A stretch of 64,000 bases of DNA from Azolla caroliniana (taxonomy: Eukaryota; Plantae; Polypodiophyta). The notes beneath the pieces were generated by a model. It did no database searches and was not told where the DNA came from. It saw only the letters and a program-made list of their open reading frames with translations. The stretch covers positions 620,001 to 684,000 of the forward strand of contig JBHGNT010000008.1 in NCBI GenBank assembly GCA_043228905.1. Direction: 5' to 3'. Of this stretch, positions 20,846 through 64,000 are shown piece after piece; within the stretch, counting starts at the first letter, position 1; each line of letters starts with the position of its first letter. Made by a program: the position numbers and the translations under genes.

Positions 20846-22417
20846 TTATATACTCTTAATTCTGACTGGAGCCTCGATTGTCGCTTGAGCCCAGTGTGTG
20901 CGGGTGTAATGGCTTCTTTCCTCTTCACGACTACATTGTATGTCGACACTCCATACCCCGGCTAACAATGCAGTCTCCATATCTTCATTTTCCTCCCATA
21001 TCATGATGGTATTCACTCCACCCGTTTCTTCAATCACTTGTCTTTTTCTCCGGATCACATCGATGATCACTTCATGGAATTCCGTCTTCGCGATCCCTAG
21101 TACTTCTCGTAGTGTTAACTTGACTTTACTGTCGAGAATCCTAGATTCGAGCACATGCTTTAGGTCGGTGGATGTTTCTATGTCGGAGGCGAGTTTGAAT
21201 GACGGGGTGAGCTTCTGCTTACCTTTGTCTTCTCTCATCACCTTCGCAACAACTCGTTCTGTTTCCCGTCTCTTTTGCTCTCGGGTCTCGGGTTTTCTCG
21301 AAGGACCCGCTTCTTCAATTCTCCTTCTTCTTTCTTTGATTGTCACCTCATGGGCATTCACCCCTGCTATCGTAGTGAGTGAATCTACTAGGTCATTCCA
21401 CCCAGTACTACTCATGATCTCATCACCAACCTTTCATAAGTCCTGTGCTTGGACTTTTTTGTCATTAGCAGATTTTATCACTTTTCCCTAGAACCCCGAT
21501 CCAATCTAGGGATTATCAACCTTCAATCTAGAGGTAGTCGAAAAGTACATTGCTTGAACATTCTTCGACTCTTCATCCTCCATCACTTTCTTCATCCCAC
21601 CTTTGCCGAAGTTTGTTTTTAGGGGTTGTCGGGTCTCCGAGGATTGGATTCTCCCATTTTGATAGAAGATAACACTTCTTTCTAATGTTTCCTTATGGCT
21701 TTGACAATCCCTTTTTTTTGTGTTCTGTGCTATCGCACCATATGCATCGCCCATGCATCGGCGGACGAATTCACCCTTTCCCCCTTCATTGGGCTTTTGT
21801 CTTACACTCGAGCTTTCACCCTTCTCAACCTTTGTAAACTTGAGTTGTAGATCCCCCATTCCCTTTATCAGCTCATCAATCGTTGACTCTGGCTCCTTTC
21901 ATTTGCTAACATCCATTCGGGTTCCTGATTCGTGTTTTGGATGTTCTCTGGCTATTGTCTTTATTCGGTTGTCACAACCATCCTCCATCCTTAACGCTCT
22001 TCTTCTTAGTACTCGACAAGCCTCGGGTACCTTTGGAAATTGGACACCAAACCGGTTGTACTTGTCCGATCCTCTCTAGAAGAATGGTGATATCTTTTCT
22101 AAAAGATTTATCTGCCTCAAACAAATAGATCCACCTTTTTTGACTGTAACAATTCTCGATCTCTTACCAAGAGCTCATTATATCTTTTCTCGAACTCCCT
22201 CAGCAACTCTGAGACTGAGAGTCCTTTACCCCCTTTCTTAGTCCATTCAAGAAAGCTTTTCTTTGATGTTCTGGTCCGATCTTCTAACATATATTTATCA
22301 AGTAATGCTTGACGGAACCCGACCCAATCTTCATGAATTTTTTCAGACAATTATGTTACCCTTGCTCGGACATCAAGTGTGCAGACCCGGTTGATATGCG
22401 ACACCATTATACTCCGG
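20846..22417 (-). mobile_element. Phygy-like Gypsy gag fragment, truncated at both ends
   Basis: ORFs 22117-22350, 21506-21859 and 20846-21415 are homologous to the gag of the 34077 and 61342 elements (RILDSKVKLTLREVLGIAK, HYTRTHWAQAT). Confidence 0.8.
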
Positions 22418-23749
22418 TGTCGTGAAAAATCCGTCACTACGTGCGGATCGTGAGGCGGAACCGCCGGGGTCCTGGACTGGAAGGATTCGAAGTTTGCACT
22501 AGCTTTAGCGAGAAAGGATTTAAGAGAGATTGAAAGAGATTGATATGGAGAGAGAGAGAGATTGAGATTAAACCCTTGACTTTAGATTTGAGAGACAAGA
22601 TACATCACCATTAGGATAACTTGTTGTTATTATTATTATTATTATTATTAATTTCTTCCCAATTTCTTCATTCGTCCCAAGATATTAAACTAATATAAAA
22701 TAGTATCTTCACTATTATTATTTCATATTGTGTGTGAAGAACCACACTTGATTTTGTACATTCCATGCAATTTTCACACCGTTGCCGAAAATCTTCACAA
22801 CATCCACCCCCACCAAACCGCACGTCCTCCGGTACGTGCCAAGAAGAGAGAGTGTGCGATTTCAGTTATGGTGATTAATCAGATTCCTCCATGTTCTCGT
22901 TCACATAACTCAAGTTTGTAGGTTCAGTCCTACTATCTTCATCGTTGAGGTGATCGAGGTCAGGATCCTCGTCTTGTCTTTTCTTGAAAATTTTTACTCT
23001 TTTTCGCGCAATGGGTATGGCCAACCTTGATCCGTCTAGCTTCGCAAGGTGGTATGTGGCATTATCATTGGCACTTGTCACCACATATGATCTGAACCAT
23101 CTTCTTGCGAACTTTCTTGTTGTTCTGTGTTGATTGTCAAGGCTGTTGTTGTAGACCAATACCCAATCTCCTTCTTCGATCTTCTTGGGATGCAGTCGAT
23201 GTGTCTTGTCGAACCGAATCTTGTTCCTCACTTGGTCTGCCTCCATTATATTGCGTGCTTTTTCTAAATCTTCAAGCCTTCTTTCAAGCTGCCTTATCTG
23301 TGCCGCTAAAAATTCTTCTCGGCTCATCTCGTTCTCCCATGGTATCGCTACCCATGAGGCAATTGTCCTTTCGATGGGCATTACCGACTTCTGTCCATAC
23401 ATAAGCTCTGTTGGCATATACCCTGTCACTGAACTGTGTGTAGTTCTGTTGGCCCACAAGGCATAGGGTAATAGTTGTGGACAGTTCCCGACTCGACCAT
23501 TGCATGCTCGTATGATGGCTTTGACGATTGGTCCATGCCCTCGCTCAATCTTCCCATTCGCTTCTGGATTGTAGGCAGTTGTGAGGGAGAGCCAAGGCCC
23601 GTCCTTCCACTTGATTTGTCAAGTCTTCTCTTGCCAGAACTAAGTACTTCATTTGTCCCACTCCCATTGGCATCGAGACCAGATCCACCATCCATTTGAA
23701 GTGTATGGTGAGTGGGTATGTCGGCTGTAAGTCATGACGATGACGTATG

Positions 23750-24429
23750 TGTAGAGAATATGCGGAATAATCTTCGGCCACTACCGAGACTTAGATCACT
23801 TAATGATAATCAAACACAGAAGAAATGAGAAATGGAAGTAAGTACACAAATAGAAGAGAATGCACAGGATGTTAACATGGAAAACCCTAAGAGGGAAAAA
23901 CCATGGGAGCCCGCAAACTCCAAACTATCACTATGTCGAGAGGAATACAACATGTAAACACGAAGGCAGTGACCTCGTCCTCACACTCTTCGCCTGACGA
24001 CAGTTACAACAGAGACTTACTCTGTTTCTCTCTCTCTCTCTCTCTCTCTCTGTTACACTCTTGTACAATAGTTACACCAATAACTATATACATCAAATAA
24101 TGACAACACACTACTACAGTTTGCCCTAGGTCATATTTATACTAATATGACTTTCGGGCTATTTACAAATATAGCCCTTGTGGGCTCTCTGGAACATATT
24201 TAGATATATGTCCCTTCATCTGGTGAGAGGTTCTCACTGGGCCTGCAACATCCGGTTCTCACCGGGCCTTCATCATCCTGTTCTCACGGGGCCTTCATCA
24301 TCCGGTTCTCATCGGGCCTTCATCATCCGGCTCTCATAGGGCCTTCATCATCCGGTTCTCACCGGGCCTTTATCATCCGGCACTCACCGGGCCTTCATCA
24401 TCCCATCCGGAGGGACCAAAATCCTAACA
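23750..24429 (-). mobile_element. Copia solo LTR related to the 42881-48346 element, with a minisatellite at ~24250-24400
   Basis: TG...CA ends; perfect 5-bp TSD GTATG (23745-23749 and 24430-24434). Shares GGAAAACCCTAA, CAAACTCCAACTATCACTATG and CATCCCATCCGGAGGGACC with the Copia LTRs. Confidence 0.92.
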
Positions 24430-25303
24430 GTATGTTCGAATGTACTTGACAAGTTACGCATGTGGACACGAAATAGAGTACATCTTTGTACATGCTTGGC
24501 CACCAGTACTTCTCCTTCAACTTTTCGAACGTCACCCATGTTCCTCTATGACCTGCCCAAGGACTCTCGTGGAATTCAGTCATCAGCTTCACTTGCTCTT
24601 CTTTCTTCACCACCACTCGACGTGGCATTTCTGTCCTTCTTTTTGGGTGTCGCCAGAGGAATCCTCCCTTCAGGAAGTATTGGTAAGCTTTCTTCCGGAT
24701 TCATAGAGCCTCCTCCTTCATCAACAAAGCATCCGCCGTGATTGTTCTTAAGAATCTGTCGATTAGTAACCACTCTCCTTCGTACTCATTCTTGTTGAAG
24801 GCGTGGACTGATAACGTGCCCTTGTCTTCCACCGATAGTTAGGCCATCTTGAAGAATTCGAGGGTGATGTCTTCATCTTCCGAAACCATGTCATTTTCAT
24901 TCTCAAATCTTGCCCTCGACAACATGTCAGCCATGGCGTTCCTCTTTCCTGCAATGTGGTGGATCTCTATGTTTAAAGAATTGATATAGGCGATCTACCT
25001 TAGCATAACTAGATCTGTCTCAATTATCACTTCCGACGCGATCAAGTAGTCTTTATCCATCTTCACTGCAGACATAATACCCCAAAGTTCCCACTTGACT
25101 TGGGCGTATCTTTGTTGTCGCTCGCTGAGAACCTTTGCTCCGAACCGAATGGCATACCACGCATTATCTTCTCTTCTTGGTTGATGACCCACCCGATTCC
25201 GGTTGGGCTCATATTTACACTCACATAAATCGGCTTCCCTTCAGTATAGTCGGCCTTTCTTAGTGTTGAAACTTCAAGAAGTAGTTTCTTCAATCTTTGC
25301 ATT

Positions 25304-25725
25304 TGTCAGAAACAGTACTAAGACATAGAAGGAATTAGTACTAAAAGAAGTATTAGTACTAAGAGAGGTGAAGAACTCTCGAGAGAAGGAAAGAGTGAGT
25401 GAGAGGGAGGGAGAGAGAGATTGAGAGTGAGAGAGAGAGAGAGAGTGATGATAAGAAAAGATATATATATTATGTGAAGAGAATGTACAGTAATAACTAG
25501 GAGGCTTAAGATTGGCGTTGAACTGATTTGGTTCGAAATAAGGCCTTGTGCATCCTTTTATAGTGTTCTCAGGAATACTCCAGAAGTCTGGAATATACAT
25601 CAATTTTCTATAATAAAACATAAATGAAAATAATATTTTATGTATTACAATGTATGGTGTAATGGTCAAGAGCTTGCCTCATGTAGCATAAGGTCATGGG
25701 TTCGAGTCTTACCATATCATGAAAA
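25304..25725 (-). mobile_element. ~420-bp solo-LTR-like insertion in the Gypsy RT-RNaseH junction, carrying a tRNA-like module
   Basis: Interrupts W*DEHTNTM|QRLKK; flanked by CATT on both sides; starts TGTC; has a TATA-like motif and a CT-rich tract on the minus strand. The other end is degenerate. Confidence 0.65.
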
Positions 25726-26423
25726 CATTGTGTTTGTATGCTCATCTCACCATTCAAACTTCATTCTTTTCTTTAACAATCCATATAATGGCTCGACGAC
25801 ATGAGCGTAGTGCGGAATCCAGATATGATAAAACGTGCATGCTCCAAGGAACCTTCGAACCTCCGTTTGGGTTATGCATTCTTCTTTCATGTGCTGGATC
25901 GCATTCACCTTGGAGGGCGAAGGCTTCCGCCCGTATGCTCCAAAAAAGTAACCTACCACCAAGATCTCTAGTTGCCTGAATGCGAATTTTTGTCCTGAAA
26001 ATGTCAAATTCGCATCTTCGAGCCTTTGGAGCACCTTCTCGAAATCTTTCATATGATCCACGACGAACTTTCTACACCCTTCTTTATCTTTCGATTCATC
26101 CTTCTCCTCATCCGAACATCCTTTTATCGGAATATCATCCAAGAATGGCATCGTGATGCCTGGGATGCAATCCTTCAAGACCTTGTTCATGGTATTCACT
26201 ATATGAGCCACCAAGTTTGTTGCACCTTGGGGTAAGGTACACATCCGCACAAGCCTGATCGGAGTCCTCATGGTTGTAATGTCACAACTGTCGATCACCA
26301 ACTAGAATTGATCGTATCCAGAGTAGAGATCACCAATGGAGTAGATGGATCGGCCCGCAAACGTTTCGGAAAATTCATCCACACTCGGACTGATTCCAGC
26401 ATTCCGAATTGTCACGTTGTTGA

Positions 26424-29400
26424 TTAGGGTTCATACGGTAATGTTGTTGTGCTACCGGTTTGACATCCTTATTGAGATGTATTTGGTGTTGGTACAACTG
26501 AGGATCCAACCCCTGCATGTCTTCATAGGACCAAGCGAATACGTCCCAAAATTCCTTTAATAAAGTGATCATCGCCGTCTTGTTGTCCGGTGACATTTCC
26601 TTAGCAATATGAACCGGTCTTGCGTCGTCCCCGATTCCTACGTTCACTTCCTCTAACTGGGATGCTTTCACGTGTTGGGATACCACCATCTCCCTCTCCA
26701 GAGCTTCCTGTGCTTGTCGTAATTCTCTGATAGCTTCCCTATTTGGTTCCTTGTCGGCAACATCCGATTGCGTTATATATGGTGACACTGCTTCTGCCAC
26801 ATCGATTTCAAATAGGGGTACAATTTTTGGGTTTTCTTCTAAGTATTGGGCGACCTCTTCGTCAGCAAACCTTCCGCATATAGCGGTGTTAGCTCCTTGC
26901 CGGTACTCGATCGAGGGTGGGTAGGTACCCTTACTTTAGCCTTTCCTCGCCGGAAGGTAATCATGTTTTTCCGCCAATTTTGTTTGATTTGCGCCGTTTT
27001 TAGCCATGGGCGACCCAACAATAGTGGGTAAGCCCCTTGCACATTGAGCTGGAGAACCACCACCGAAATGCAGAATGCGTGTCCTCCGATAGTTACGTCT
27101 AAATCCTATATCAAACCGGTAGGTCTTACCGAACTTGTATCCGCCATCCAGAGCCAAAATGGGCAAGGCTCCCATTCTTGGATTCCCAGGGTATTACAAG
27201 TCCGTAGACTAATAACGTTCACGCCGATCCTCCGTCCATAATCGTCCCTGGTTGTTCTCGTCCTTTGACGATGGCGGTGATTGCCGGACTTTTCGTGTCA
27301 ACCATTGCTGGCCCTTCTTCTGGATTTGAGAAGAACGCAAGAGCCTGCAACGGATTTGATGCGGTCATTCCTGATTTCAGCCCTTCCGTAAACTGGGGTA
27401 CTAGCTGTAATAACCGACCCAATGGTAGCGTAATTTGACATTCTTGTAACGCTTGCCATGTTGGGTTTTCCGGCTGAATCGTGTTGGTGGCCTCTTCCGG
27501 TTTCTCCTTTTGTTGTTCAAGCTCAGCCACGTTCCGCTCATTTGCCTTCATCACCCACTTGGTGGCTTGCTTTCGGATTGCCTCCTGTGTTTCCCACTTC
27601 GTTGTTTTGCCTTTTGCCCTGGTGCTGACTTGTTGTATGTCGGCGACTTCTACTACCACCATGTTTACTGCTGGTCGTTTCTCGTAACTTTTAACCATAC
27701 ATTGATTACTGTAATGTCCTTCTTGCCGGCAATAGTAGCAGTATGCTTTCCGAGTGTTGCTGGATTCGACGTTCGCTCTGGTACCCGGTTGAGGTCCTAT
27801 TGGTGGTCGGTTAGGTACTTGGCCTTGGTCTAGTTGGGTACTTGGTGTGCCCTTGTCCGACTGCCATTGGTGGTCCTCCTTTCTAGCTTTCCATTTTTTG
27901 TTGAAGAGTTTATTTGTTCCCGTAACCTTGTCGGGGCCGGTTTTCATAATTGCCTTGATCCTCCCTCTGTTGGTTGTAACCGGGGGAGTGATCTCGGTTG
28001 TATTGCTCATATCGATCACCATTGTAATCCCTATAGCTATCCTACCGGTCTCGGTTGTGAGCGTCTTTTCTGTCGCTGTGCCGGACATCTTGCGTCGACC
28101 GGTCACACTCATCTCACTGCCAATGTTCTTCTTCCTCCTCCCATTTACTCCGGGGTTCGATTTGCCTTACCGGTGCCACTTGTCGGTTCAACAAGTTATA
28201 TTTGCATCGGTCCATTGTGTGCGCCCTGGAATGGCATAACATGCACTGTGTCCGCATGGTACATTCTATTGCCGAGTGCCCAACATTGAGACAAGTCATA
28301 CATTGTATAGCTTGCCGAAAACGTAGGTCGTCTTCTGTCGGTAATGTATGCTCGAGTGCCCCCATTGTTAGCCATGAGCTCGTTTTCTCCATCTCCTTGA
28401 CCCGATCTATGACTTGGTCGATCATGTTGGTGTGGAAATCAATCACTGCGCACACCATATGCAAGGGTTCCCGGAGTGCTGCTAGGAATATTGCTTTAGC
28501 CCCTGCTTCCAGTGGTGCCTGATTTAGCTGCCTGTGCATTCGCTAGAACCGGATTACGAATTGGTGAATGGTTTCCGTAGGTTCCTGCCGTATGCTTTAG
28601 AATAGGCCGACCATCTCCCATTGATCCACCTCCTTGTTGAAGAACTGTAAAAATTTGGTTTTTAAGTCCTCAAACGTCGTGATGGTGCCGGGAGGGTGTG
28701 CCAAGCGCCATTGCGCAGTTGGTCCTTCCAAGGTCATGCCGAACTCTACAATCTTCGAGCGTTCTGCTTCGGCGGCGGTCAAGCGTTGCAACACATTGTT
28801 TGCTTCCCATGTTTGTAGAAATGCATAGACATGAGATTCCGCGTCCGGATCATCCCGGTACTTGGGATATTGGAACAACATGTCGTCGTATGGTGTCGGA
28901 ACACGGGTTGGTGGTGTTGGAGGTCTTTCCTCCCCTTCTTTCGGTGTCAGAGGTTTTTCCTCCTCTTGTCGGTCTGGGGCTTCCAATTCCGTTAACTCTG
29001 GTTCTGGTGTCGGCAAGGTATCCGAATGCTCGTCCTCTAGTCCGTTTGGGGTGTTGTGGCTGCTACGATAATTCGAATGGGCGCTACATTCACCGTCCGA
29101 ATCCGATTCGAAGGCCGAGAACGGTTCCGAAGCGCCTTCCCCTGTTGCTAATGCTTGCCAAATGGATTCTGTGTCCAGGAGACTGCTCAAGCTGCTTCCT
29201 TCGTCCGGGTGGGGAGTGTGCTGCACGCGGAGTGACTCCGCGACCACTCGCTGGATTACTTTGGAAAATGATCGATTCGCACAGATCTCTTCTACCGCCT
29301 GGTGGAAAGCCTCTCGTTTCTGCAATCATTCGGCAAGTCTTCTTGCTCGCTCCATAACCGGGTTGTTCATTGGTCTAGTCATCCATTCCCGCCGTTGTTC

Positions 29401-29900
29401 GCTGCGTTTGTGTACGAATCGTGGTGGCCAAAAACTGTGTTATCGCTAGGGGCCGGACAATGGCCTAACACAGGGTGTCCCTTTGAGACACTTCACCAAA
29501 GGGGTGTTGCGGTGGTATAAACTTAGACAGAACTATTAATGGAACCCTAATTGGTTACTAATCGGCAAGATCATTAGACACAATACACACGTAAGATGAA
29601 TTACACTTAGCACAGAACAGTAATTAACTTGATTAAGATACAGAACAACAACACTCTATTAATTATCCGCTAATGATTACAATCTAACCAGGCCCTTTTA
29701 TAGGTCTCCGGCTATAGGAACAAGCAGGTGCCAACCGGCAACCGGCTACGAACCGGTCCGGATCCAAATCGGCATACCAATTCCGGGTCCGTATGTTCGC
29801 TTCTCAAAATCATAATAATTCTATATTATAGATAATCCGCTCCTGGTTATTAATTATCCCCCTTTTCCCATTCTAGACTTCCCTTGCCGGCCAGCTAACA
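26424..29900 (-). mobile_element. 5' part of a Tat/OTA-like Gypsy (LTR 29438-29900, gag, protease, start of RT), 3' deleted
   Basis: LTR has TGTTA...TAACA ends. Gag has three CCHC knuckles; protease IMDGGS; LLGRPWL; DVFAWSYEDMQGLDP typical of Tat-type RT starts. Confidence 0.8.
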
Positions 29901-32495
29901 GAAGCAATTGCCTAAGTCTCTAGAACAAGTGTGGAGAAAATTTGGCCGTTGTCATTGGCTTTATTATCTTGGTCCTTCTCTTCCTTTTCGCCACCATCCG
30001 TCTCTTGGTTCTCACATTGGTTTCCAGACACAACTGCCCAAGTCTCTAGATGAAGTGTTAGGAAAGTCTCCACATGACCATCCGCCATTGACTCGTTAAT
30101 AACCATCTCCGACTCGATGTCGTTTTTCGTGGCTATCTCTTCAATCTCATGGGCCTTGTACCCATTGACCTTCTTGATCGAGCAAGCTTCAATTATCCTT
30201 CTCTCTTCGTCGCATGTATTCGTTTCAACCTTCGGCTCCTCGCCGACACCTTCCATCACTTGGGTTTCACGTTGGTTCTTGGACGCAACTGCACAAGTCT
30301 CTAGATCATGTGTGGAGAAAATCCGGCCATGGTTGTTGTCGATGCTTGTTATCTTGTTCATAGTCACCTCCTCGATGTCGTCTCTAACAGCTAGATCCTC
30401 AATTACACTAGCCTCGCACTCTTTATCTCTATTGATGCAAGCTTCGATTAGGCTTGCTCCTTCATCATCCGATGTTTCAAACATGATACGCGTTCTGAAA
30501 CATTCATCCTTCCTCGAAGTGGCCTTCTCCATCCTTGAGTCATCATCAATCTTCTTTTCATGTAGGTTTCTTTGTTTAGGTGGCTCGACTTCTTTAGGTG
30601 GTCTTGATGTTTCTACGCTTGGCTTTACCAAGTCAATGTCATCAAGCCATTGATGATGCATGTGGATCTTGTTGCATGTTCGCTTCACCGCAACCCAGTC
30701 CGCCACAAGCCTGTTCGCTTGGGTATCATCTTCGAGGAGAGTACCCAGTTCTCGTCTATCCTTTATATCCATAGTCTTCAGGAAGTACAAAGTTTTGTCC
30801 TCCTCAAGTAGCACTTGGTTTGTGGCGGGGAGACGACGAAACATTTGGTCGAATTCATCATACACCCTCGAGGTGCTCATCTTCTCATTTTTCTTCTCTA
30901 TCCACCTCATCAAGGTATGTCAAGTCATCCTCGACAAATCTTTCGTCATGAACTCCGCTAATATTGATCTTTCAAACTCTGACCACGTTGTCTTGCCTTC
31001 TTGAAGCTCGATGACACGTCTTTGGATGTTTTTGGCAACAACTCTCTTGAAGCTTGCGATTTGACGTGCTTCGGACACGTCCCTTTGATTCATCTCCCTT
31101 TTATATGCATCAAGGAACTTTGTAATGTTCCTTCCGTCAAATTGACCCTCAAGCTCCACGACACAGTCGACGGCCTTCTCCACGCTCGCATCGTTGTCTC
31201 GAGATCTCATTATTTGTTAGACGATCAACATCATCCTTTCGAACTCTCCTGCTTGGTTCCTTGAGGATACCATCTCCAAATTTCGGTTGATCCTCGACTT
31301 GATCCTTCCTACCGCCTCTTTCACGTCGGGTTCACCACTTAATTATGTCGTGAACATTCGTCACTATGCGCGGATCGTGAGGCGGAACCACCGGGGTTCT
31401 GGACCGGAAGGACTCGAATTTTGCACTAGCTTTGGCGAGAAAGGAATTAAGATAGATTCAAAGAGAGAGAGATTGAGATAAGATAGAACGATTGCCTTTA
31501 GATTGAGAGAGATTAAGATTAAACTCTTGACTTTAGATTTCAAGAACAAGATTGATACACCAATTGGATAACGAGTTTCTTACTTTTAATTTCTTGATTA
31601 ATACATTGCTCCCCTTTGATCTTTTTCATCCACCCTTTTATAGATGCTCCCATGCATATGATACATGTGAGGATACAAGCAATGCATACAATGCATGGAA
31701 TGCATGTGATGCATGTTTGCCATTTGGCGCTCATGCATCACATGTCACTCAATCAAGCTCTAATATGAGAATTTACATGTAAAGCTATAATGATAAAAAT
31801 ATAATCCCTAAAGAAATGATTTGGCTTAATGGTAAGCCTATTGCTTCCTATCTTGGAGGTGCAAAGTTTGAGTCTTGCTTACATCTTTTTTTTTTATACA
31901 CAAAATACTATTAGGCTTTTGGACCAAATATCTTTAAGACACCATGCACCGCGATCAACCGACCCGATCGATCCGTCCGATTTGCATCCGTTTGGTTCGG
32001 TTCGGTCCGTATCCCGAGTCCTTGCCGATCACCGGTCGATCGTTGCTTGCCGGTTGCGCCACGGTGCTGCCGTCGGTTTTGGTTGGTCAAAACCTTTACA
32101 AGTAGCTAGGCCACACCCACTCATCATCCAATTAGCTTAGTTCGAGTCACCTTGAACTCTCTATGCTCCACACATTGACACAAAGATAATAGCTTTTGCT
32201 CTGCCTTATATATGGTGAGATCCTTATTTGTCCTATATATGTGGGATATCTCACAGTTTTATCTTTCTCTTTTCCTTTGCAAAGTTTCTACCCACATAAC
32301 TTGAGACTTAGATGTCCGTTTCTTATGTAGTAAAGTGCATTCGAAAGCTCTTTAAGACCTCCATCTTTTTGTACTAAGATATTAAACCTATTTAAAATAA
32401 TATTTTCACTATTATTGTTTTATATGATTCATACTCGATACTCGATTTCGTATGTTTATGCGATTTTCACACCATTGCCGAAAATCTTCACGACA
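29901..32495 (-). mobile_element. 5' part of a Phygy-like Gypsy derivative: 5' LTR 31346-32495, tRNA-Trp PBS 31320-31337, gag with acidic repeats
   Basis: TGTCGTG...TTCACGACA ends; PBS TGGTGAACCCGACGTGAA; gag motif GQFDGRNITKFLDAY. Confidence 0.85.
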
Positions 32496-34076
32496 ACGGT
32501 TGTTTGATAGGCTTAAAATCTTCGAGATACCAAATGACAGGGTTTGGGCCATCTATCCCCTATATGAGCAAGTCTTTGGGTGTGTAAGATGCCCAAGTGG
32601 CCTATCCAATTGCTTCACAACACCATTGGTGTAAAACAGGGTTTCCCTTTGTCACTGACTCTTTTTGGGATCTACATTCATGAGATCACTGATTTTATTG
32701 TTTGTAAAGGAGGCAACATAATAGCCATTTGGGGTACGCAAGTTAGTCTCCTACTCTACGCAGACGACATAATTTTTCTCTCGGAGTCTGAACACGACCT
32801 ACAAAAGCACCTTAATGCCCTAGATGACTTTTGCACACAACGAGGATTACTATTGAATCTAGCGAAAACTAAAGTCCTTATCTTTTGGACATCGTCTTGC
32901 GTTAGGAGTAAATGTCACCAAATCGTCTCTTATAAACCAGTTGAGGTAGTTGGATCATGTGTATATCTAGGAGTCACTTTTAGTGCTCATTCAGGTAAAT
33001 CCTCGATGACCCAGGCAGCCAAACATAGGCTAACGACAGGGTATGCATCCCTCTCACTCTTAGAGAGACAATGCCACTAGGCATACTTTCAAAAGCCACG
33101 GACTAAGGGATGGTTCTTCAACTCATTACTGACCCCTTCCCTCATGTACGCATCAGTAGTATGAGCTCCAAGTCTACCATCTTTTATGTGGACACAATTA
33201 GAGAGACCTTTGTTGACTATGTTATCACGTCAACTCCGAAACAAATCGACAGTACCACATAACATTAATTAAAGAGCAGTGTTCAATTTGCCCCCGATGT
33301 TAGTAGAAGCACTTTTCCAACTGGTAGTTTTTATTCAACCACAAGATAGGATATCTCGTCAAGCTTCTGTGGCATCCCGATCCCTATATGCGTCCGGAGA
33401 TACTAGCTCTTGGTATACCACTGTGATGAGTTGGTTACTTGGAAATGGCACAGACATTAATAACCTACCTCCCCTTAAGTACAACCATGGGACTGATCAA
33501 ACTTTAATATCTCATGAAGACCGTAATAAAGTAATACGCCAAGAAATATGGCAAATTTACACCCGATATACATGGATCGCCCCACGAGAGCCACTCCCAT
33601 CTAAAATGTAGTACTATAAGGAACGCTTCATGCACTTCTCTAAGTTAGGTTTTATTACACGAACAAAATATCTAGATACATTCTTATCAAATGCACTAAG
33701 GGTGGCCATTGGACAACTTAGGATATCATTTCACCAAGTTGAGATTGAGAATGTTCATGTTAATAGAGTCCCTAGAGAGCAAAGTCTATGTAGGTTATGT
33801 CACATAGAGATAGAGGATGAGTATCACTTTACATGCAAGTGTCGAACTTATGCCGAGATAAGGGTAAAATACGAAGGCTTACTAGGACCCTCTCCCACCC
33901 TCCAAACTATTAGATACCCTGGATATAAAGAGACTAGGTAAGGATATCTTAGAGCTAAAACAACATAGGTAGAATAAACTACAAAGTGTTAACCATAACC
34001 ATTTTTATATTCACCAACATGTACATGTACCTAATGTAATTTTTTAGGAACAAGGGGAGACGATGAATGTGGACAC
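32496..34076 (+). mobile_element. RTE-like LINE fragment (RT plus C-terminal Cys/His domain), truncated by LTR elements on both sides
   Basis: GVKQGFPLSLTLFGIY, LLYADD and LC..C..EIEDEYHF..C motifs; closely similar to 58690-60275. Confidence 0.88.
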
Positions 34077-36598
34077 AAGAAAACCGGCCATAGGCGGAAT
34101 CGGACAAAAAGGCGCATGTGTCGGGAGTTCGCTGTAGGTGTCGGGAGTTTGCTACCTCTGCTTCGTGGACAACCCGTGTGCTTCTAGCAGAGTCTCTCTC
34201 CTCCCCCTTTCCCTTTTCGTTTCTTCGAGTCGTGTGGATGTCGTCGGTGTGCGTGAGTAGGACCCCGTGTCGGGTCCATTACCAGGTTGCCGGTTGTAAG
34301 CTATTGACTATAGTAATCGGATTCCTGTTCTCCTTGCTCTTAATCTCTCTTTGTGTACTTGTCTCTCTCTCTCTCTCTCTCTCCTTGGTCCAAGACCCCC
34401 TGTGGTCCCGCCTCTTTCTACACGCACACGCGTAACAACGCGACATATTTGGTGAACCCGACGTGAAACGGGCTACAAAGGAGTTGAAAGATGAGGGGAT
34501 CGGAGCTAGCAGAGGCAAGGGCGGTAGTCGTCGACCGGCTGGTAAGCACTCGTGAGGGGACGGGTACCCTCGACAGAGCCATCAAATCGATCGTCGGCAC
34601 TATAGGCCGGTTCGGAGGGAAAGACGCCACAAGTTTTTTGGAGGCTTACCAGGCCGAAATGATCATGAGGGATATCCCGGTAGACAGGCGGATGACCGGA
34701 TTCCCTCGGGTGGTGACGCCGAGCATCCACGCAGAGGTGCTCGAGATGCTGGCCGGATGCCAGACTTGGAAGGAGTTCGAGCTGCAGCTCCTCGAGAAGT
34801 ACGGGTTTGACGACTCGCTTCGGCTGTCGAGGCGGGACTTCATGGCGTGGGTGGAAAGCCCCAGAAACGGAGGAAAATGTCAGTGCTCTTCCAGGAGTTC
34901 GAAAAACGGTTCACGCGGCTCTCGACGCTGGACTGGACAGTGCTCGAAACGAATCGAGTACTACTGTTTGTCAAGTCGGTGGACGCGCTCAACAGGGAAA
35001 AGGTGGGTCCCCTATTGGAAACAGACGAAGGGCTCACGGCAGACTGGGCCGTGGTAAAACGGGTTTGCAGCCGTTTCGACAAACGGCGCGATTGGAGCGA
35101 CGGAAGCTCGTCGGGGTCAGGGCCGGTCCCGGGGAGGAGGCTCGAGGAGCCGGTATCGGTGCCAGCCAGTAGGAAGGAAGAGACCCGAATCTGGCCAGAG
35201 TCGGGGTCGGCATCGAATGACGTGGTCAGAGGCCCATCAGGAGGAGCGGCTCTAGAGGAGCTGACACAGATGGTGCGCGACCTGCAGGTTGCACAAGCTC
35301 GGAGGGACAGCGGCGAACAACCTCGCAACTGGAGGCCGCCGGCTAGGCAGTGGTGCATGTGGTGTGACGCGATTGGTCACATTTGGAAGGATTGCGCGGA
35401 TTTCGCCGACGCGCTCAGGACCAACGTGTTGTACCTTTGGAACGGGCGGGTGCACATGAGCGAGACCCGGAGAGCCCTAGAACTGAATACGGTGCGCGAC
35501 GGAAGAGGCCGCGACACGGCACGTTGAAGCCGTTAACTACTCAGTGTCAGCGGGAATTCGGGTCGAGGGTGATGAGACCTGGAAGGCGAAGGACTCCGGA
35601 TTCTGGCCGCTAGTGCTAGAAGGCCTCTCCGGAGTTCGGCTGAAGAAGGAAGCGGCGGACCGTGCAGAATAGCGGGTCTAGGAGGTCACCGGTTGGGACG
35701 ATCCGGTCGAAGAGAAAACAGGCTTTGTAGAAGCCGTTTGCCAGAACTACGAGGTTCTGGTGGAAGACAAACGGGCAGGAAAGGCCGGAGGGGTCGGTCC
35801 CCCGCAGAGGTATGAGACCCGGTTCGGACCGAAACTGACCGGTGCCGGCAACCCAGGTGCGCCGGATGGAAAGAAGCGGGCGGGGTTTCAGTTGAGTACC
35901 GAAATCGAAAGGACCACAGACCTGTGAAAGGTCCTGGAGGAACGTATCCTCGACAACAAAGTGGAGCTGTCGCTGAGGGAATTGCTCGGGATTGCCAAGA
36001 AGGAGTTCCACGACTCCATGGTAGACTTGGTGAAGAGGAAATGGTTGTCGACGGAGCCGGAACCGGAGAAGCCGGTGGAGGTGCGGACCGCGCACTTGGA
36101 AGACGTGACCCTAGAAGATGAGTTGGCGGAAAGCCACTACACGAAGCCGCATTGGACCAGGGCAACTACGGAAACCCCTGTACGGATCGGCAACGTTCCG
36201 GAACCGGTGGTGGCCTTGGTAGACCATGGATCCGAAATCAACATGATGTCCATGGATCTCTACAAGAGGGGTAAATGGCTGATCAACACCAAGCATGGCT
36301 GGAAAATACGGGCAGTGACGCGCGCCACGGAAGAACTACATGGAGCCTGTCCGAACGTACGGGTGAAAATCGGCGATGTCGAGATCGACCAACACTTCTT
36401 CGTGCAGGAGACGTCCTCGCATCCGGTTATACTAGGAGAGCCATGCATCACGGCGGCACGGATGGAGACCAAGGTGTTGGCCAACGGTTCGGCCTATGCA
36501 AGAGTCAAGAGCCAGGACGGGTGCCACTCGGTCCAGTTCCTGACGGTGCGACTGAACCATGAGCGTAACTGCGAGGCCCTCGGCGGCGAAACCCGAGG

Positions 36599-36642
36599 GG
36601 ATTTTTAGAGAGGGCTATCAAGGCGTGGGGCCGCGATAGTCC
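36599..36642 (+). promoter_or_regulatory. Candidate -1 programmed ribosomal frameshift signal (G_GAT_TTT plus stem-loop)
   Basis: The heptamer immediately precedes the gag-AP stop. The -1 frame is open from here into RT. GGGCTATC (36612) pairs with GATAGTCC (36635). Confidence 0.75.
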
Positions 36643-38487: not shown

Positions 38488-38759
38488 ATGGTTTCCAGAT
38501 GCACGACGTCGGACCTAGCAATGCTCCGGTGGATAGCGTACATTAAGTCCTTGAACCCGGAGATACGACACATCTCCGGAAAGGACAACACCATGGCCGA
38601 CATGCTTTCGAGAGCGAGGTTCAATGGTTTCCGGATGCCCGACGTCAGACCTAGCAATGCTCCGGTGGATAGCGTACATTAAGTCCCTGAACCCGGAGAT
38701 ACGGCACATCTCCGGAAAGGACAACGCCATGGCCGACATGCTTTCGAGAGTGAGGTTCA
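38488..38759 (+). repeat. 136-bp tandem duplication in RNase H (frameshifting)
   Basis: ATGGTTTCC.GATGC.CGACGTC...GAGGTTCA occurs at 38488 and 38624; peptide SDLAMLRWIAYIKSLNPEIRHISGKDN appears twice. Confidence 0.92.
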
Positions 38760-47964: not shown

Positions 47965-47997
<33 letters not shown>

Positions 47998-51300: not shown

Positions 51301-52354
51301 AGAGTTGGCAGTGCTATTTCTGGATTTCGAAAAAGCTTATGATAGAGTGGATTGGAATTTCATGGAGGGTACTTTGCTTAAGATGGGTTTTCCAAACAGA
51401 TGGATACGAGGAGTTTCAGCATTATATCGTAATGCACATAGTTCGGTTTTATTTGCAGGGGATATTGGTAGGCGTTTCTCTATTTCAAGATCAGTAAGAC
51501 AAGGATGTCCACTTGCTCCTTTTCTGTTTTTATTAGTATCTGAAGCGTTTTCTATACACTTAAATTCTCAGCATGTTAATATCAAAGGTCTAGCATTTCC
51601 ATTTGCAGATGTTGGTGTTGATAGTGAGTTTGCTAATGATACAGCTCTTTATATTCACGCCTCACAATTTAACTTGTTGCAGGTTCAAAAAGTTGTGGAT
51701 GACTTCGCAAATGCATCGGGTGCGTTGATCAATTGGGATAAATCATCAGGTTTTTGGGTGGCTTCGGGAAATCCTCCATTTAATGCTCCTAGCGCAGGTT
51801 TCACATGAATTCCTAAAGGGCAGTCCATTAGGTATTTAGGATGTAGAGTAGGGTTAGGAGTAAAGGTAGACGATATGATTGCGCCCTTATTGTTAAGATT
51901 AAGAAATAAGCTCATATATTAGAATAAGGAAAAGTTATCCTTAGCAGGACGTGTAGTTGTTGCTAATTCCGTGCTTTTGTCCTCAATTTGGTATATAGCG
52001 TCTACATGGTTGTTCTCTAGATCAATAATGCTTAAAGTTCAACGGCTAGTGCGGAATTTTATTTGGGGAAATGATACAGTACACAATACTATAGCAAAGG
52101 TAGCTTGCTCGGTTCTTATACAACCCAAACAAAAAGGAGGTTTAGGTTTGATTGATCCTTTTATGCAAAGTAAAGCATTACTTGTTAAACATGTTGTTAG
52201 GTGTTTATTGCCAAGCCAGGAGTTATGGAAAAAGTTTTGGATGTGTCATTTATATAAATTTAAACCATCGGTTGGTGGTCAATGGTGTGATAGTCTTAGA
52301 TGGTTCTTTAACTCGGATTTTCCGTTGTCTAAATCGACAGTTGGGTCTTTACGT

Positions 52355-53082
52355 TGTCGTAGTGTATTTTGTACACTACGTGAAAAACGTATATAGTATT
52401 AGATTCAATAAAAAATGAAGAAATAGAAGAAAATAGCAAAATAAATGAAACATGCATAGGGCAAGATTCGAACCTTGCACCTCCATGTTAATAATGTAAT
52501 GTCTTACCATTACACTAGCATTTCATTAGTGTTAAAGCATAGATGTCCCACATAGAAAGGTAAATTCACGCTAGGATAAACATTAGAAAAACACATAACA
52601 AAAGAAAAAGCTACACATACACATCTAGCGTGCATGATAAAAAACGCACAAGTTAGAAAAAGCATGATCACTTTAGATAAAGCATATAGTCTATCTATAG
52701 GAAAAGCATGGGGTCTATAGTTAGAGAAAAAGCATGGATTACTAAGACTTCCTCATCACTACATAAGGATGGGAAGCACAATGTAATTGTGTGTGAAAAA
52801 TATTTGGAAACTAGATATGTTTCTAAAAAACACCAATTAATAAACTATACTCGTGGGATTCACGAGAATTCTATATCATTCTCTTTTAACCGAAGTTTAT
52901 ATTCTTATATTCATATTGATTAATCTAATACAATACACTCGTGGGATTCACGAGTTTGCTATAACTCTTTCTTACAACATATTTATATTCTTATTAGCCT
53001 TAAAACTCTCCTCTTCCTAGTCCAAAACCCCAGCGGTTCCCACCCGACTCACGCAAACGATCCGGAGCCGAAAGGCACGACA
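52355..53082 (+). mobile_element. Phygy-type solo LTR inserted in L1 ORF2, 4-bp TSD ACGT
   Basis: TGTCGT...ACGACA ends; ACGT at 52351-52354 and 53083-53086; removing it restores VGSLR|FFNGILRAWE. Confidence 0.9.
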
Positions 53083-55059
53083 ACGTTTTTTTAATGGAAT
53101 TCTAAGGGCATGGGAAAGTATTCGTCGAGCACTTGTTTTCTTGCCACCAAAAACATATCATCAATTAATGCGTCAACCGTTGTTATGGAATCCTTTGTTT
53201 ACTGATGAAGCGGCATGTGTTTTGGGTTTATGACCTAGGTTATCTTGGGCGGCAATGGATAACGGACCAGCTCATACGGTTGCGGATTGGATTAATTTCC
53301 TGCAGACTTCAGTGCAAGACCAAAAGACTAGGGTGTCTAATTTCAGAGGGGCAAACATTATGCTCTCTCAAGTGTCAACGGTGTACCAGGTAACACTAGC
53401 AACTTTGCGTTTTCGTCATTTTCTGAATTGGTATGGTATGTTTTCGAGACTGAATATACTTATAGGAGCTCGTTTTTATACCAAAATGGTAGCCTCTACT
53501 TTTATGAAGTTTTGGATAATGGTAGGTTGTTGTGAGTGGAGGGTGAGTCTTCAATTATGTCTTCTACCAAGCTGCTGCTAGTGAGAGTAATTGCTAGGTT
53601 AGATAAAAAGATATTTATAGATCCTAATCCATTAATTGCTAAGTATTCATCTCATATGTGGGTTTTACACTCTAGACCAATTGTTGATCTGCAATGGGAT
53701 CCATTAGATTATGGTTGGAAGTTACCCATGTCTAACAATACGCAAGAGAAAGTTCTTCCATTTTTCGCATATTCTGTGTCATTGGGCAGAAAGGTTTTGT
53801 TAAAAAAGATAGAGTCAATTCCTGCGGGGAAAAAATATTGGGAGGAAGGTATGGTGTCATCTTCATATATGTTGAAGTTCTGGAAACAGTTTTGGTCACT
53901 TAAATGTATGAACAAGGTATTGCACTTTCAATGGTTAATGATTAATTATGCATTGCCAGTAGGAGCTTTATTGAGGGGAACAGTACCTGATCGATCATGT
54001 GGTAGGTGTGGTTTTGCATCTGAGACATTGCATCATGCTTTTTGGGAATGTGTTACGGCCAAATGTTTTTGGTCTCATATTCTTAGGCTTGTAGGTCGTA
54101 AGTATAGGGCTACTAAATTCACATGGGGTACAATCTTTTGTGGTACGTTGGCTCAAGAAACTATTTTTTATCATCATCATAATTCATCGTTGACTTTACA
54201 TGTGAAAAGTTTTCAGGTGTACATTACAAATAGCTCCTTGCAGGGAGTCAAGTTCTTTTCCAGTTGTTATGTTTGGAACATTATTTCCTCTTTGGCCTTA
54301 TGGATTATTTGGAAAGCAAGGTGTTCTGAAACATATAATGATGAACAAACTAATGTTGTGGATCAAGTTAAATCTTTCTGGGAATTATTGGTAAATACGG
54401 TTAAAGGTGAATATGATAGTTATAAGGGTTTTGGAAATGTGCCTAACCAGAAAAGAAAGAGAATTAGAAGAGTCTGGTCAACTATTCCTATTTTCTTGGA
54501 TGCTGCAGGTGAAGATGTAAAGTGGAATTATGTTCCACCTCGGTGGTTATTTACGCCACTAGCGCCATTTATATTGAATACAATATGATTAAATAGGAAG
54601 TCCACATTAATTTGTCATTAGGTCAGTAGTGCATTAAGTTTGTTTGTAGTCATGGAAGTATTTATAGTTGGTAAGGATGAATGATGGTGTTGACGGCGGG
54701 TTGAAGTACATTTTTAGGAGGGGATGCACACAATACATTTACGCTATTGTTGTTTGTACAGGTTTTAGGTGGTGAACGAACATATGGTTGATGTAGAAAT
54801 GAAGCACATTGTTGATGTGGAAAATGAAGGGGATTAGGAGGAGTCATTACAGGTTCGAAATGGTATAAATCGAGATGGGTGATGAGGTATTGAAGCAATT
54901 TGTCTAGTTTTTAGAGACAAGAGAATCATGGTGGTGTTGCGGGCTAAAGTAAGGTTTGATGAGGGGGGGGGTTGTATTTTCATTATGATGATTCATGATG
55001 GCGGTGAGAATTGAAGCCTCATGTTTCCCGTGAAGAGAGGACAAGTGAAGATGGTGCGA

Positions 55060-60742: not shown

Positions 60743-61341
60743 GGTGAAAACACACAATTATATTGATAAATGTGTGTAAAAAACACTACTTACAATGGGT
60801 GTGACCATGAAGTATGGTCACCCACTAACTACACTACACTACATGGGTAATGGAACATGTTGAATTGCCAATAAGCAAGACGAACATTCCACCGAGGAAC
60901 GGATTTCCACTTGCTCCAATAAAGAAAATTTCCACATTAGTACTCCCTTCAACTTTCATAGATATGCTTTCACTCCATGTCTACCATCGAATAGAAAAGC
61001 GTTGTGCATATTCCAATTATGATGCAATCCCCAATATCTCAAAAATAGAAAAACAATCTCCATCTCTAACTTTGGGTCCACCTATGTAAATTGTGCAAAC
61101 ACCCACTGTCTAGGTGTCAAATAACACCGTGATAAAACTTGCCAAATTTGAGAAATGTAACTCCAAATTTGAGAAGCAATCGGGCATTGTATAAATCGAT
61201 GAGTATTATCTTCCATTTGAACAGTGCAAAAAAAAGCAAATCCCAAAGGCAATCCTCTAATCAAAACTCTCCAAATGAAGACCTTTGCTACAAGTGGCAA
61301 TTTAGAATCCCAACTGCGTTGTAAGATTTGCCACCACCCGT
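60740..61341 (-). mobile_element. L1 3'-end fragment (zf-RVT)
   Basis: KLPLVAKVFIWRVL..GLP...CTVQMEDNTHRFIQCPIASQIW. Confidence 0.75.
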
Positions 61342-64000
61342 TGTCGTGAAGAAAACCGCCCACAAGGGGAATCGGAGGAACAAGGCGTGGGGGAAACGGC
61401 TCTACACGCACACGCGCGCCAAGAAGTACCTAAGGACGAAGTAGGTACATACGAGGATCCTAGGTGGGTAGATTCGGTTGGTATGCAGTTAATGCCAAAC
61501 GGCCTCTTGACGGGATATAAAAGGAAGAGGAAGAATAGAAGTGGGGTATCTCGCGCGGAGAGGACGAAGTGCTGCCGAACCGATTTGGAAGCTCCTCTCT
61601 CACTCCTGCTTTCTCTGTTTTCTGCTCCATCGCGTACCTGTGCAGGTTTCGAGGAGGCTTGCGCTGTTCCGTGGAACGCCCCGAGTGCGTCCTGCAGCAC
61701 CTCCGACCTGTTTTCCCCTTCCCGTGCGTCGCGACATACAGGGGTCGGCATCTGTTCGCCGCCCTGTTCGTTTTCGTTAGTATCTATTTCGTGCCCTACC
61801 GTGGGTTGTAACGCTTTAGCCTGTTATTTTCTTGCATTCATAAGTACATATCTTTCGTGGTTGCGTCCATCTGCGTCGGCGTTTATTTGCGATCTCTGTT
61901 TGTTGGGCCGTGTCCCTGTGCAATCTTCGGTTCTGTGTAATCGGGTCTCTCTCCTCTTCTTCTCTCTCTCTCTCTTGCTCTTCGGTCCAAGACCCCCGTG
62001 GTCCCTCCTCCTTTCTGCACGCAAGGGCGTAGCAACCCTCGACATCTTGGTGAACCCGACGTGAAAGAGGCGGCAGAAGAGCAGGAAATGAGGGGGTCGG
62101 ATCTCGCAGAGGCCATGGCTTCGGCCGTGGATCGGATTGTAAACGCGCGCGAGAGCACCGGTGCCCTCGACAGAGCTATTGAGGCGGTCGTCGGCACGAT
62201 CGGCCGGTTCGATGGGAAGGATGCCACGAAGTATTTGGCGTCCTACGGTGCAGAGATGCTGATGCGGGACATTCCGGAAGAAAGGCGTCTTGCCGGATTT
62301 CCCCGAGTGGCGATGCCGAGCATCCATACGGAGGTGCTCGAGGTGCGGACGGAGAGCCGTACCTGGGAGGAGTTCGAAGGTCGGCTCCTAGAGAAATACG
62401 GGCTGGACGACGCGCTCCGGCTTTCGAAGCGAAGGTTCATGGAATGGGTGGAGTCCCCGGGGAAGGGAAGAAACGCGTCGGCGCTCCTCCGGGAGTTCGA
62501 GGAAAACTTTGCGCGCCTTTCGGCGCTTGACCGAACCATCCTGGACACGAGCCGGGTCTTGCTGTTTGTCAAGTCGGTCGACGAGCGGGATCGGGAGCAA
62601 GTGGGCTTCTTGCTGGAAACCGAAGACGGGCTCACTACCGACTGGGCGGCTGTCAGGAAGGTCTGTGGCCGTTTCGACAAACGGCGAGAATGGGCGGATA
62701 ACGGGGCGACCGGGTCGGGCTCGGTCGCAGGAAGGAAGCTCGAACCAGCGCCACAGGTGCGCAAGGAAGAGACCCGGGAGTGGTTGGAAACCGGTTCGGC
62801 TTCGACCGGCGTAGTCAGAGGCTCAACCGGAGGAGCGGCGCTGGAGGAATTGACGAAGGCGATAAAGGACCTCCAAATCGCGCAGGCCCGAAGGGAAGGA
62901 GGCGAACCGGCTCGTGACCGACGGCCGGCGGCAGGAAACAGGTGCATGTGGTGCGATGAAGTCGGCCACATTCGGAAGGACTGCGGCGACTTCGCGGAGG
63001 CGCTGAGGAACAGGGTGGTGTACCTGTGGGAAGGACGGGTGCATGCCAGCGACACCCGAAGGGCCCTGAGCCGAAACGACGGAAAAGGCTGTATGAAAAG
63101 GGTGATGGAAGAGGCGGCGGCCCGACACGCGGAAACCGTCCACTACTCGGCGTCGGCCGGCATTCGAGTCGGGGGCGGCGAGGCCCGGAGGGAAAGCAAA
63201 GCCGGATTCTGGCCAACGGTGCTGGAAGGCCTTGCCGATACGAGGATGAAGAGGGAGGAATCGGACCGTGCGGAGAAACGGGTACGGGAGATGACCGGGT
63301 GGAGCGACCCGGTCGAGGAAAGGACGGGCTTCGTGGAAGCTGCTTGCCAGAACTACGAGGCTCTGGTAGAAGAGAAGCGGGTGGGGAGACCCGGGACGAC
63401 CGGGCCCTCACAACGATACGAGACCCGGTCCGGGCCACGACGGGACGAAGCCGGCGGGGCCGGTACGCAAGATAAACCCCAGAAGGGCGGGTACCGTCTG
63501 GGGACGGAGATAGAAAGGACCACGGACTTACGAAAGGTCCTGGAGGAACGGATCCTCGACAGCAAGGTGGAGCTGTCGTTACGAGAGGTGCTGGGAATCG
63601 CCAAGAAGGAGTTCCACGACTCCATCGTGGACTTGGTGAAACGGAAGAGGCTGTCGACGGAGACAGAACCGGAAAGACCGGTGGAAGTGCGGACGACGCA
63701 CCTAGACGACATGGCGCTGGGAGACGAGTGGGCGGAAAGCCACTATTCGAGACCACACTGGGCCCGAGCGACCACGGAAACCCCGGTGAAGGTCGGCGAT
63801 GTCCAGGAACCGGTGATAGCTTTGGTGGACCACGGATCGGAGATCAATTTGATGTCCATGGACTTCTATAAGAAGGGCAAATGGCCGATCAACACCAAGC
63901 ACGGGTGGAAAATAAGGGCAGCAACGCGCGCCACCGAGGAACTGCACGGGGCCTGTCCGAATGTGTGGGTCAAGATTGGCGACGTCGAGATTGACCAACA
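61342..64000 (+). mobile_element. Young Phygy-like Gypsy: 5' LTR 61342-62044, Trp PBS 62048-62065, gag-protease ORF running off the window
   Basis: TGTCGTGAAG...CTCGACA LTR; PBS TGGTGAACCCGACGTGAA. Confidence 0.92.
62088..64000 (+). CDS. Gag-protease polyprotein, apparently uninterrupted (absent from the ORF track because it has no stop in the window)
   Basis: MRGSDLAEAM...GRFDGKDATKYL...CMWCDEVGHIRKDC...ALVDHGSEINLMS...KIGDVEIDQ, read by eye without stops. Confidence 0.85.
   Translation, partial: MRGSDLAEAMASAVDRIVNARESTGALDRAIEAVVGTIGRFDGKDATKYLASYGAEMLMRDIPEERRLAGFPRVAMPSIHTEVLEVRTESRTWEEFEGRLLEKYGLDDALRLSKRRFMEWVESPGKGRNASALLREFEENFARLSALDRTILDTSRVLLFVKSVDERDREQVGFLLETEDGLTTDWAAVRKVCGRFDKRREWADNGATGSGSVAGRKLEPAPQVRKEETREWLETGSASTGVVRGSTGGAALEELTKAIKDLQIAQARREGGEPARDRRPAAGNRCMWCDEVGHIRKDCGDFAEALRNRVVYLWEGRVHASDTRRALSRNDGKGCMKRVMEEAAARHAETVHYSASAGIRVGGGEARRESKAGFWPTVLEGLADTRMKREESDRAEKRVREMTGWSDPVEERTGFVEAACQNYEALVEEKRVGRPGTTGPSQRYETRSGPRRDEAGGAGTQDKPQKGGYRLGTEIERTTDLRKVLEERILDSKVELSLREVLGIAKKEFHDSIVDLVKRKRLSTETEPERPVEVRTTHLDDMALGDEWAESHYSRPHWARATTETPVKVGDVQEPVIALVDHGSEINLMSMDFYKKGKWPINTKHGWKIRAATRATEELHGACPNVWVKIGDVEIDQ

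What the first reader, a model, noticed from the sequence alone, without database searches (positions are those of the whole stretch)
22414..61345. All five readable Phygy-type insertion sites are CpG-centred 4-mers (M-C-G-K)
Seen: the flanks of TGTCGT..CGACA LTRs are CCGG (22414-22417), ACGG (32496-32499), ACGT (40937-40940), CCGT (61338-61341), and a complete 4-bp TSD ACGT/ACGT at 52351 and 53083. All lie inside older TE-derived sequence, where CpG looks scarce. The integrase has no chromodomain. Inference: the integrase recognises a palindromic CpG core, possibly methyl-CpG, which would steer insertions into silenced TE DNA. Established: most plant LTR elements make 5-bp TSDs with weak sequence preference, as the Copia copies here do (GAATT, GTATG).
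Basis: partly seen in the sequence, partly recalled or inferred. Interest (0 to 1): 0.75.

Follow-up and report, generated by a model that had tools for sequence, protein, structure and literature searches.

The report
Known CG-targeting Phygy-type retrotransposons
These plant jumping genes land almost only on four-letter sites with CG in the middle, a habit already published for the Phygy group of moss; their integrase likely reads the bare DNA sequence, and nothing found here shows that the CG must be methylated.

Summary
All five flank 4-mers are as stated. Genome-wide, 1132 of about 1234 host-side ends of one family are followed by N-CG. In three families 317 of 356 sampled ends are CG-centred against 3.2% background, and 70 of 70 intact TSDs are 4 bp with a CG core. 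Neumann et al. 2019 already list Phygy as '4 bp (100%) (NCGN)', with a tRNA-Trp PBS. These elements share that PBS and lack a chromodomain. M-CG-K is too narrow: it fits 670 of 1132 CG sites. V-CG-B fits 307 of 317, like the foamy-virus VYRB consensus narrowed to CG. The methyl-CpG idea gains no support. Flanks are CpG-rich, not scarce. Nesting in repeats (309 of 342) is matched by a Copia control without CG bias (21 of 23). TCG decays like other CpGs yet is avoided. Methylation at the time of insertion could not be tested.

The parts
22414..22417 (.). Host flank CCGG at the 3' end of family-A element (half site; no matching partner)
22418..22802 (-). Family A 3' LTR, internally deleted (385 bp), preceded by a PPT at 22803-22819
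22803..26423 (-). Family A RT-RH-INT region, broken by stops and insertions
23750..24429 (.). Copia-type solo LTR nested in A integrase, 5-bp TSD GTATG (control)
26424..30538 (-). Stretch that mostly does not match family A (different gag, zinc knuckle, protease-like motif); makes A a composite
31320..31337 (-). PBS of A, 18 of 18 nt complementary to host tRNA-Trp(CCA) 3' end
31346..32495 (-). Family A 5' LTR (1150 bp)
32496..32499 (.). Host flank ACGG (CCGT on the element strand), inside an RT-bearing repeat
34078..34445 (+). Family B 5' LTR, terminus and left flank lost
34450..34467 (+). PBS of B (tRNA-Trp)
34468..40284 (+). Family B gag-PR-RT-RH-INT (broken frames), ending in a PPT; no chromodomain
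40285..40936 (+). Family B 3' LTR
40937..40940 (.). Host flank ACGT, in a repeat
42881..48346 (-). Ty1/copia element with 5-bp TSD GAATT (control family)
52351..52354 (.). Left TSD ACGT of family S solo LTR, inside a LINE ORF2
52355..53082 (+). Family S solo LTR (728 bp)
53083..53086 (.). Right TSD ACGT
61338..61341 (.). Host flank CCGT at the 5' end of a second family-B element, in a repeat
61342..62044 (+). 5' LTR of second family-B element (continues past the window end)
62048..62065 (+). PBS (tRNA-Trp)

Best explanation
Three families of Phygy-type Ty3/gypsy retrotransposons duplicate a 4-bp V-C-G-B site on insertion, and the integrase likely selects that palindromic site by reading the DNA sequence itself, without needing methylation. 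Shown: 4-bp TSD, CG core, V and B flanks, a weak G/T bias one base further out, tRNA-Trp PBS, no chromodomain. Inferred: a symmetric intasome bends the target at the central pyrimidine-purine step as foamy-virus integrase does (consensus VYRB), but here base contacts restrict that step to CG. The near-invariant D-R-G-E motif, whose Glu falls where PFV has Ala188 (position recalled), and the SH3-like C-terminal domain are candidate readers. TG/CA cores are later deamination of methylated copies. Enrichment in repeats is likely due to where CG sites lie plus purifying selection near genes, as for Copia.
For: Family S genome-wide: 2080 right ends, 846 followed by YAR, the PBS side, 1132 followed by NCG, i.e. 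91.7% of about 1234 host-side ends. Sample of three families: 317 CG, 32 TG/CA, 7 other of 356 ends; background NCGN 3.2%. 70 of 99 paired elements have identical TSDs, all 4 bp and CG-centred; in 16 of 17 pairs with a TG/CA side the other side is CG, so other flexible YR steps are rarely if ever used. V-CG-B fits 307 of 317; TCGA 0 of 317 although 11.5% of background NCGN. CpG decay between LTR pairs does not depend on the 5' base (ACG 43/684, TCG 44/747, p 0.84), so avoiding TCG is sequence readout, not a methylation difference. PFV consensus KWK-VYRB-MWM with Ala188 and Arg329 contacts (PMC4176367 passage); PFV and Ty3 integrases are the closest solved structures. The Copia control nests in repeats as often: 21 of 23 versus 309 of 342. 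No chromo, MBD or SRA hit at E up to 1 in 12 ORFs.
Against: Targets lie in repeats more often than 4-mer-matched random CG sites: 309 of 342 versus 698 of 999 (locus bootstrap 57-79%), and 233 of 342 versus 547 of 999 with an unbiased database. None of 74 ORFs beside the 33 non-repeat flanks hit a recognisable host-gene family. Both fit a methyl-dependent model as well. In moss, ACG and CCG keep most residual methylation in met mutants (PMC6453930 section 9), the same order as the target preference A>C>G>>T. The Copia control is small (23 ends, 2 probably spurious). No biochemical or methylome data were available. The base-contact roles of the motifs are by analogy only.
Confidence: 0.72

Rival explanations
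1. The integrase needs or strongly prefers 5-methyl-CpG at the centre of V-CG-B, which would confine insertions to silenced DNA without a chromodomain.
For: 309 of 342 flanks are repeats, above matched CG sites; no host gene found beside non-repeat flanks. In P. patens methylation is targeted to TEs (PMC6453930 passage), and ACG>CCG residual methylation parallels the preference. A 1992 paper on CpG methylation and in vitro retroviral integration exists (title only, in a reference list).
Against: Copia without CG bias nests equally. TCG decays as fast as ACG but is avoided. Flanks are CpG-richer than matched sites (o/e 0.95 versus 0.87), not old decayed DNA. No methyl-reader domain was detected. 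Drosophila ZAM-group elements target CGCG (PMC5408687 passage) in a genome with almost no CpG methylation (recalled).
Confidence: 0.15
2. A host protein that binds CG or ACGT sites (methyl-binding or bZIP/bHLH type) tethers the intasome, as TFIIIB does for Ty3, and sets the site.
For: ACGT is the commonest site, 6-fold over background. The integrase ends in a long low-confidence acidic tail that could bind a partner. Ty3 integrase is a close structural relative.
Against: The CG sits exactly on the symmetry axis of the cut in 317 of 356 ends, and about two thirds of CG sites are not ACGT. A bound factor would cover the site rather than expose it (inference). Composition is flat at +6 to +11.
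Confidence: 0.1
3. The pattern is an artefact: the flank bases belong to the LTR, or only CG-site copies were retained or noticed.
Against: Inner LTR ends abut the PBS or PPT, not CG. TSD pairs match each other but vary between copies. Whole-genome counts give 91.7%. The Copia control has 0 of 23.
Confidence: 0.01

Closest known systems
Phygy lineage, non-chromovirus Ty3/gypsy of Physcomitrella patens (Neumann et al. 2019, PMC6317226; passages and Additional file 5 read)
   Same: 4-bp TSD with NCGN preference (186 elements, 100% 4 bp), tRNA-Trp PBS (81%), no extra domain, polyprotein filling the interior.
   Different: Here the motif is resolved to V-CG-B with a G/T bias at +5; full copies are 6.6-8.4 kb (published 7.7-10.0 kb); the host is probably not P. 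patens; 3.1-4.4 kb non-autonomous partners share the target rule. Phylogenetic placement was not tested.
Prototype foamy virus integrase (PMC4176367, passage; PDB 3oym and others)
   Same: 4-bp TSD, palindromic VYRB consensus, best structural match of the modelled integrase.
   Different: PFV accepts any flexible YR step with a weak bias; these elements use CG almost exclusively, and the +5 bias is G/T rather than A/C.
Drosophila errantiviruses of the ZAM subgroup (PMC5408687, passages)
   Same: Sequence-specific palindromic target containing CG (CGCG).
   Different: CGCG has GC at its centre, not CG; different termini (AGT) and three ORFs.
Selgy and TatI (PMC6317226, Additional file 5)
   Same: 4-bp TSD in non-seed plants; TatI also uses tRNA-Trp.
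   Different: Selgy uses tRNA-Ala and is 4.4-6.7 kb; TatI carries an extra aRH; no CG preference is reported for either.

Membership tests
Phygy | RT/RH/INT group with REXdb Phygy sequences in a phylogeny | not testable with these tools
   The reference FASTA (Additional file 3) is too large to read. Named homologues are from Riccia (61-66% over full-coverage RT-RH hits) and Adiantum, none from P. patens among the 120 listed per search.
Phygy | Ty3/gypsy order PR-RT-RH-INT with no chromodomain, aRH or other extra domain | tested here: met
   Pfam at E up to 1 on 12 ORFs from families A, B and S; model ends in an SH3-like sheet and a low-confidence tail.
Phygy | 4-bp TSD with NCGN sequence | tested here: met
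   70 of 70 identical TSDs among 99 pairs; 317 of 356 ends.
Phygy | PBS complementary to tRNA-Trp | tested here: met
   18 of 18 nt match to host tRNA-Trp(CCA) genes at all three window PBS.
Phygy | Short element (7.7-10.0 kb) whose polyprotein spans the interior | tested here: inconclusive
   Full-size copies are 6.6-8.4 kb, with gag-PR and pol in overlapping frames filling the interior; many fall just below the published range.
Phygy | Described as specific to P. patens (a sampling statement) | tested here: inconclusive
   A window PPR protein has no named near-identical match among the 120 listed, and the assembly is 523 Mb against 462 Mb, so the host is probably another seed-free plant. 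Phygy has since been annotated in a liverwort (PMC12885004 passage).
Selgy | tRNA-Ala PBS | tested here: not met
   PBS is tRNA-Trp.
TatI | Extra archaeal-type RNase H | tested here: not met
   One RNase H region only in each pol ORF.
Chromoviruses (Tcn1, Galadriel and others) | C-terminal chromodomain | tested here: not met
   No Chromo hit at E up to 1; none in the fold search rows shown.
Methyl-CpG-reading proteins (MBD, SRA) | A recognisable methyl-cytosine binding domain | tested here: not met
   No such Pfam hit; the fold matches shown are integrases only. Readout by the catalytic core itself is not excluded.

The most novel reading that the evidence does not exclude
Phygy-type integrase is a chromodomain-free reader of methylated CpG: it inserts only at V-mCG-B, so the element uses the host's own silencing mark as its landing signal, keeps out of unmethylated genes, and erodes methylatable sites in older repeats. 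This would be a new route of heterochromatin targeting, conserved from mosses and liverworts to ferns.
Probability: 0.15. Interest if true: 0.75.

Novelty: new member of a known kind. Interest (0 to 1): 0.24.

Why it matters
The CG-centred TSD is a published hallmark of Phygy, so the finding as stated is a rediscovery. Phygy is the one plant LTR lineage with a strict target sequence in the 2019 survey, and my searches found no work on how it is read. It is therefore a clean system to test how an integrase gains base specificity and whether methylation matters. If methyl-CpG were required, it would be a new targeting mechanism.

Tried and rejected
1) A G-to-A mismatch at TSD position 1 seemed confined to full-length elements (6 of 8 against 0 of 7 solos). 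A pre-set test on new elements gave 1 of 7 full-length copies. The site is CHG on the lower strand, and CHG decays as fast as CG here (95/1524 against 179/2930; CHH 125/7121). Rejected as a mechanism. 2) A first tRNA pattern found nothing; the corrected one found 55 matches. 3) A Copia control by exact pattern found only the window copy; a DNA search supplied the control. The last Fisher line mixes two databases and was ignored. 4) Metagenome relatives (80 loci) are mostly collapsed contigs. Only 3 host junctions were visible in the part of the output shown (ACGT, CCGT, GCGG, all CG), and these look like the same families; the output was cut by a script bug. No test in other hosts resulted. 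5) The ESM Atlas gave generic RT-integrase clusters with no useful taxa. 6) The PPR search did not fix the host group (named hits mostly 27-36%). 7) Papers on GingerRoot, Cryptococcus TEs and two LTR surveys held nothing on CG-centred targets (passages). 8) No sequencing-run or complex-prediction job was sent, as neither could show methylation at the time of insertion.

Full report
Observation. All cited 4-mers are at the cited places. The window holds three related Ty3/gypsy families: A (22418-32495, minus strand), B (34078-40936 and 61342 onward) and S (solo LTR 52355-53082). Only S shows a complete TSD. The two ends of A read CCGT and CCGG on the element strand, its LTRs differ in length, and about 4 kb of its interior is foreign, so A is probably a composite of two insertions. 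The 5' terminus of B at 34078 is lost. With local CG frequencies of 0.015-0.029, five of five has a chance near 4e-9 (my arithmetic).

Genome-wide test. An exact 19-base family S terminus occurs 2080 times. It is followed by YAR 846 times. In my hand count of the first 100 rows, all 37 such rows were PBS-type, and the other 63 were 59 CG and 4 TG/CA. It is followed by N-CG 1132 times, 91.7% of the remaining 1234, and by M-CG-K 670 times. I then scanned fetched loci for termini defined only by PBS- or PPT-side junctions. I left out the 30 loci chosen by the NCG pattern, the window and its duplicate locus, and 5 truncated inner junctions. Of the 356 host-side ends, 317 are CG, 32 TG/CA and 7 other (A 84 of 96, B 106 of 124, S 127 of 136). 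Background from 40 evenly spaced 10-kb stretches of contig C1 is 3.2%. The two ends of one insertion count separately, and the sample leans to young copies on C1. Of 99 paired elements (including the window's solo and some loci from the NCG search), 70 have identical TSDs, all 4 bp and CG-centred, 24 differ only by transitions and 5 differ otherwise. In 16 of 17 pairs with a TG/CA side the other side is CG, so TG/CA is decay after insertion. The Copia control has 5-bp TSDs and CG at positions 2-3 in 0 of 23 ends.

Motif. First base A 185, C 77, G 51, T 4; last base T 176, G 84, C 51, A 6. V-CG-B fits 307 of 317 and M-CG-K 218. ACGT is 6-fold enriched; TCGA is absent though it is 11.5% of background NCGN. 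One base further out G/T is favoured and C depleted (p 1e-9); +6 to +11 are flat.

Identity. All three window PBS match the 3' end of host tRNA-Trp(CCA) at 18 of 18 bases. Natural full-size copies are 6.6-8.4 kb with gag-protease and RT-RH-INT in overlapping frames, and show no chromodomain, second RNase H or methyl-binding domain at E up to 1. The integrase model (mean pLDDT 70.6) ends in an SH3-like sheet and a low-confidence tail, and its best matches are PFV and Ty3 integrases (sequence search). Named homologues come from Riccia and Adiantum. The host is probably not P. patens. An earlier AI note calls it likely a fern; my PPR search could not confirm that.

Literature. Neumann et al. [quoted passage not shown] Jedlicka et al. 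2019 (PMC6911290; passages) find 4-bp TSDs dominant in Phygy and GC-rich centres in 4-bp TSDs. So the core claim is known. Searches listed no paper on the mechanism, on V-CG-B or on methyl dependence; I saw only the listed rows, and Neumann's Additional files 1 and 3 were unreadable.

Does methylation or TE steering explain it? For: 309 of 342 flanks are repeats, against 698 of 999 matched random V-CG-B sites and 407 of 800 random places; with background loci alone as database, 233 of 342 against 547 of 999. Of 74 ORFs beside the 33 non-repeat flanks, 7 hit retroelement domains, 1 hit DUF4939 and none a recognisable host gene. In moss met mutants ACG and then CCG keep most methylation (PMC6453930 section 9). 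Against: Copia ends are in repeats just as often, 21 of 23 and 15 of 23 with the two databases (small, 2 ends probably spurious). CpG decay between LTR pairs is the same after A, C, G or T (p 0.84), so TCG is methylated like the rest yet avoided. Drosophila ZAM-group elements target CGCG (PMC5408687 passages) in a genome with little CpG methylation (recalled). None of this observes methylation at the time of insertion.

Mechanism. PFV integrase makes a 4-bp TSD with consensus VYRB: the target bends at the central YR step, and Ala188 and Arg329 contact the bases beside it (PMC4176367 passage). Palindromic target motifs are the rule for LTR elements (PMC3276498 passages). I infer the same geometry here, with extra base contacts that limit the centre to CG. 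The conserved D-R-G-E motif and the C-terminal domain are candidates by analogy only. Confidence: 0.72 for methylation-independent readout, 0.15 for methyl-CpG readout, 0.10 for a host tether, 0.01 for artefact.

Verdict. A real, strong and already published property of a probable Phygy member, with a sharper motif and a probable new host. Interest 0.24.

Noticed in passing
L246:2234-3958 (-), L227; family S elements of 3.1-3.5 kb: Abundant non-autonomous partners with family S LTRs carry a 575-aa ORF with no Pfam match at E up to 1, and follow the same CG target rule.
   Followed up: partly
window 26424-30538: About 4 kb inside element A mostly does not match full family A copies and holds a different gag, zinc knuckle and protease-like motif; probably a second Gypsy element or a rearrangement.
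   Followed up: partly
G000 C8:17.80-17.82 Mb, C16:4.99-5.09 Mb, C5:10.105-10.112 Mb: Clusters of the tRNA-Trp 3' arm pattern, on C8 with a period near 1.2 kb; possibly tandem tRNA gene arrays. Only 5 dispersed matches were confirmed as tRNA-Trp.
   Followed up: no
L013-L016 (G000 C3:11.23-11.24 Mb); C1:20.87 Mb: Tandem family S elements that share LTRs, period about 2.75-2.9 kb.
   Followed up: no
LTR pairs of 33 full elements: C-to-T differences are as frequent at CHG (6.2%) as at CG (6.1%), against 1.8% at CHH, which points to strong CHG methylation in this host.
   Followed up: yes
Integrase core of all three families and homologues: D-R-G-E-L in 74 of 76 matched stored proteins; the Glu falls at the position recalled as PFV Ala188 / HIV Ser119, a target-contact residue.
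   Followed up: partly
Flanks of 307 V-CG-B ends: Besides the G/T bias at +5 (p 1e-9), T is depleted at +12 (47 observed, 82 expected, p 5e-5). Unexplained.
   Followed up: no
window 38488-38760: 137-bp tandem duplication at the RH-INT junction of element B.
   Followed up: no
window 7443-15525: Two PLS-type PPR ORFs with an E motif and a FolD-like exon: the gene-bearing part of the window, where no Phygy-type terminus was detected.
   Followed up: partly
window 17361-18045 and 20849-21886: Older Phygy-like gag-protease remnants without recognisable termini; the 22414 site lies in such DNA.
   Followed up: partly
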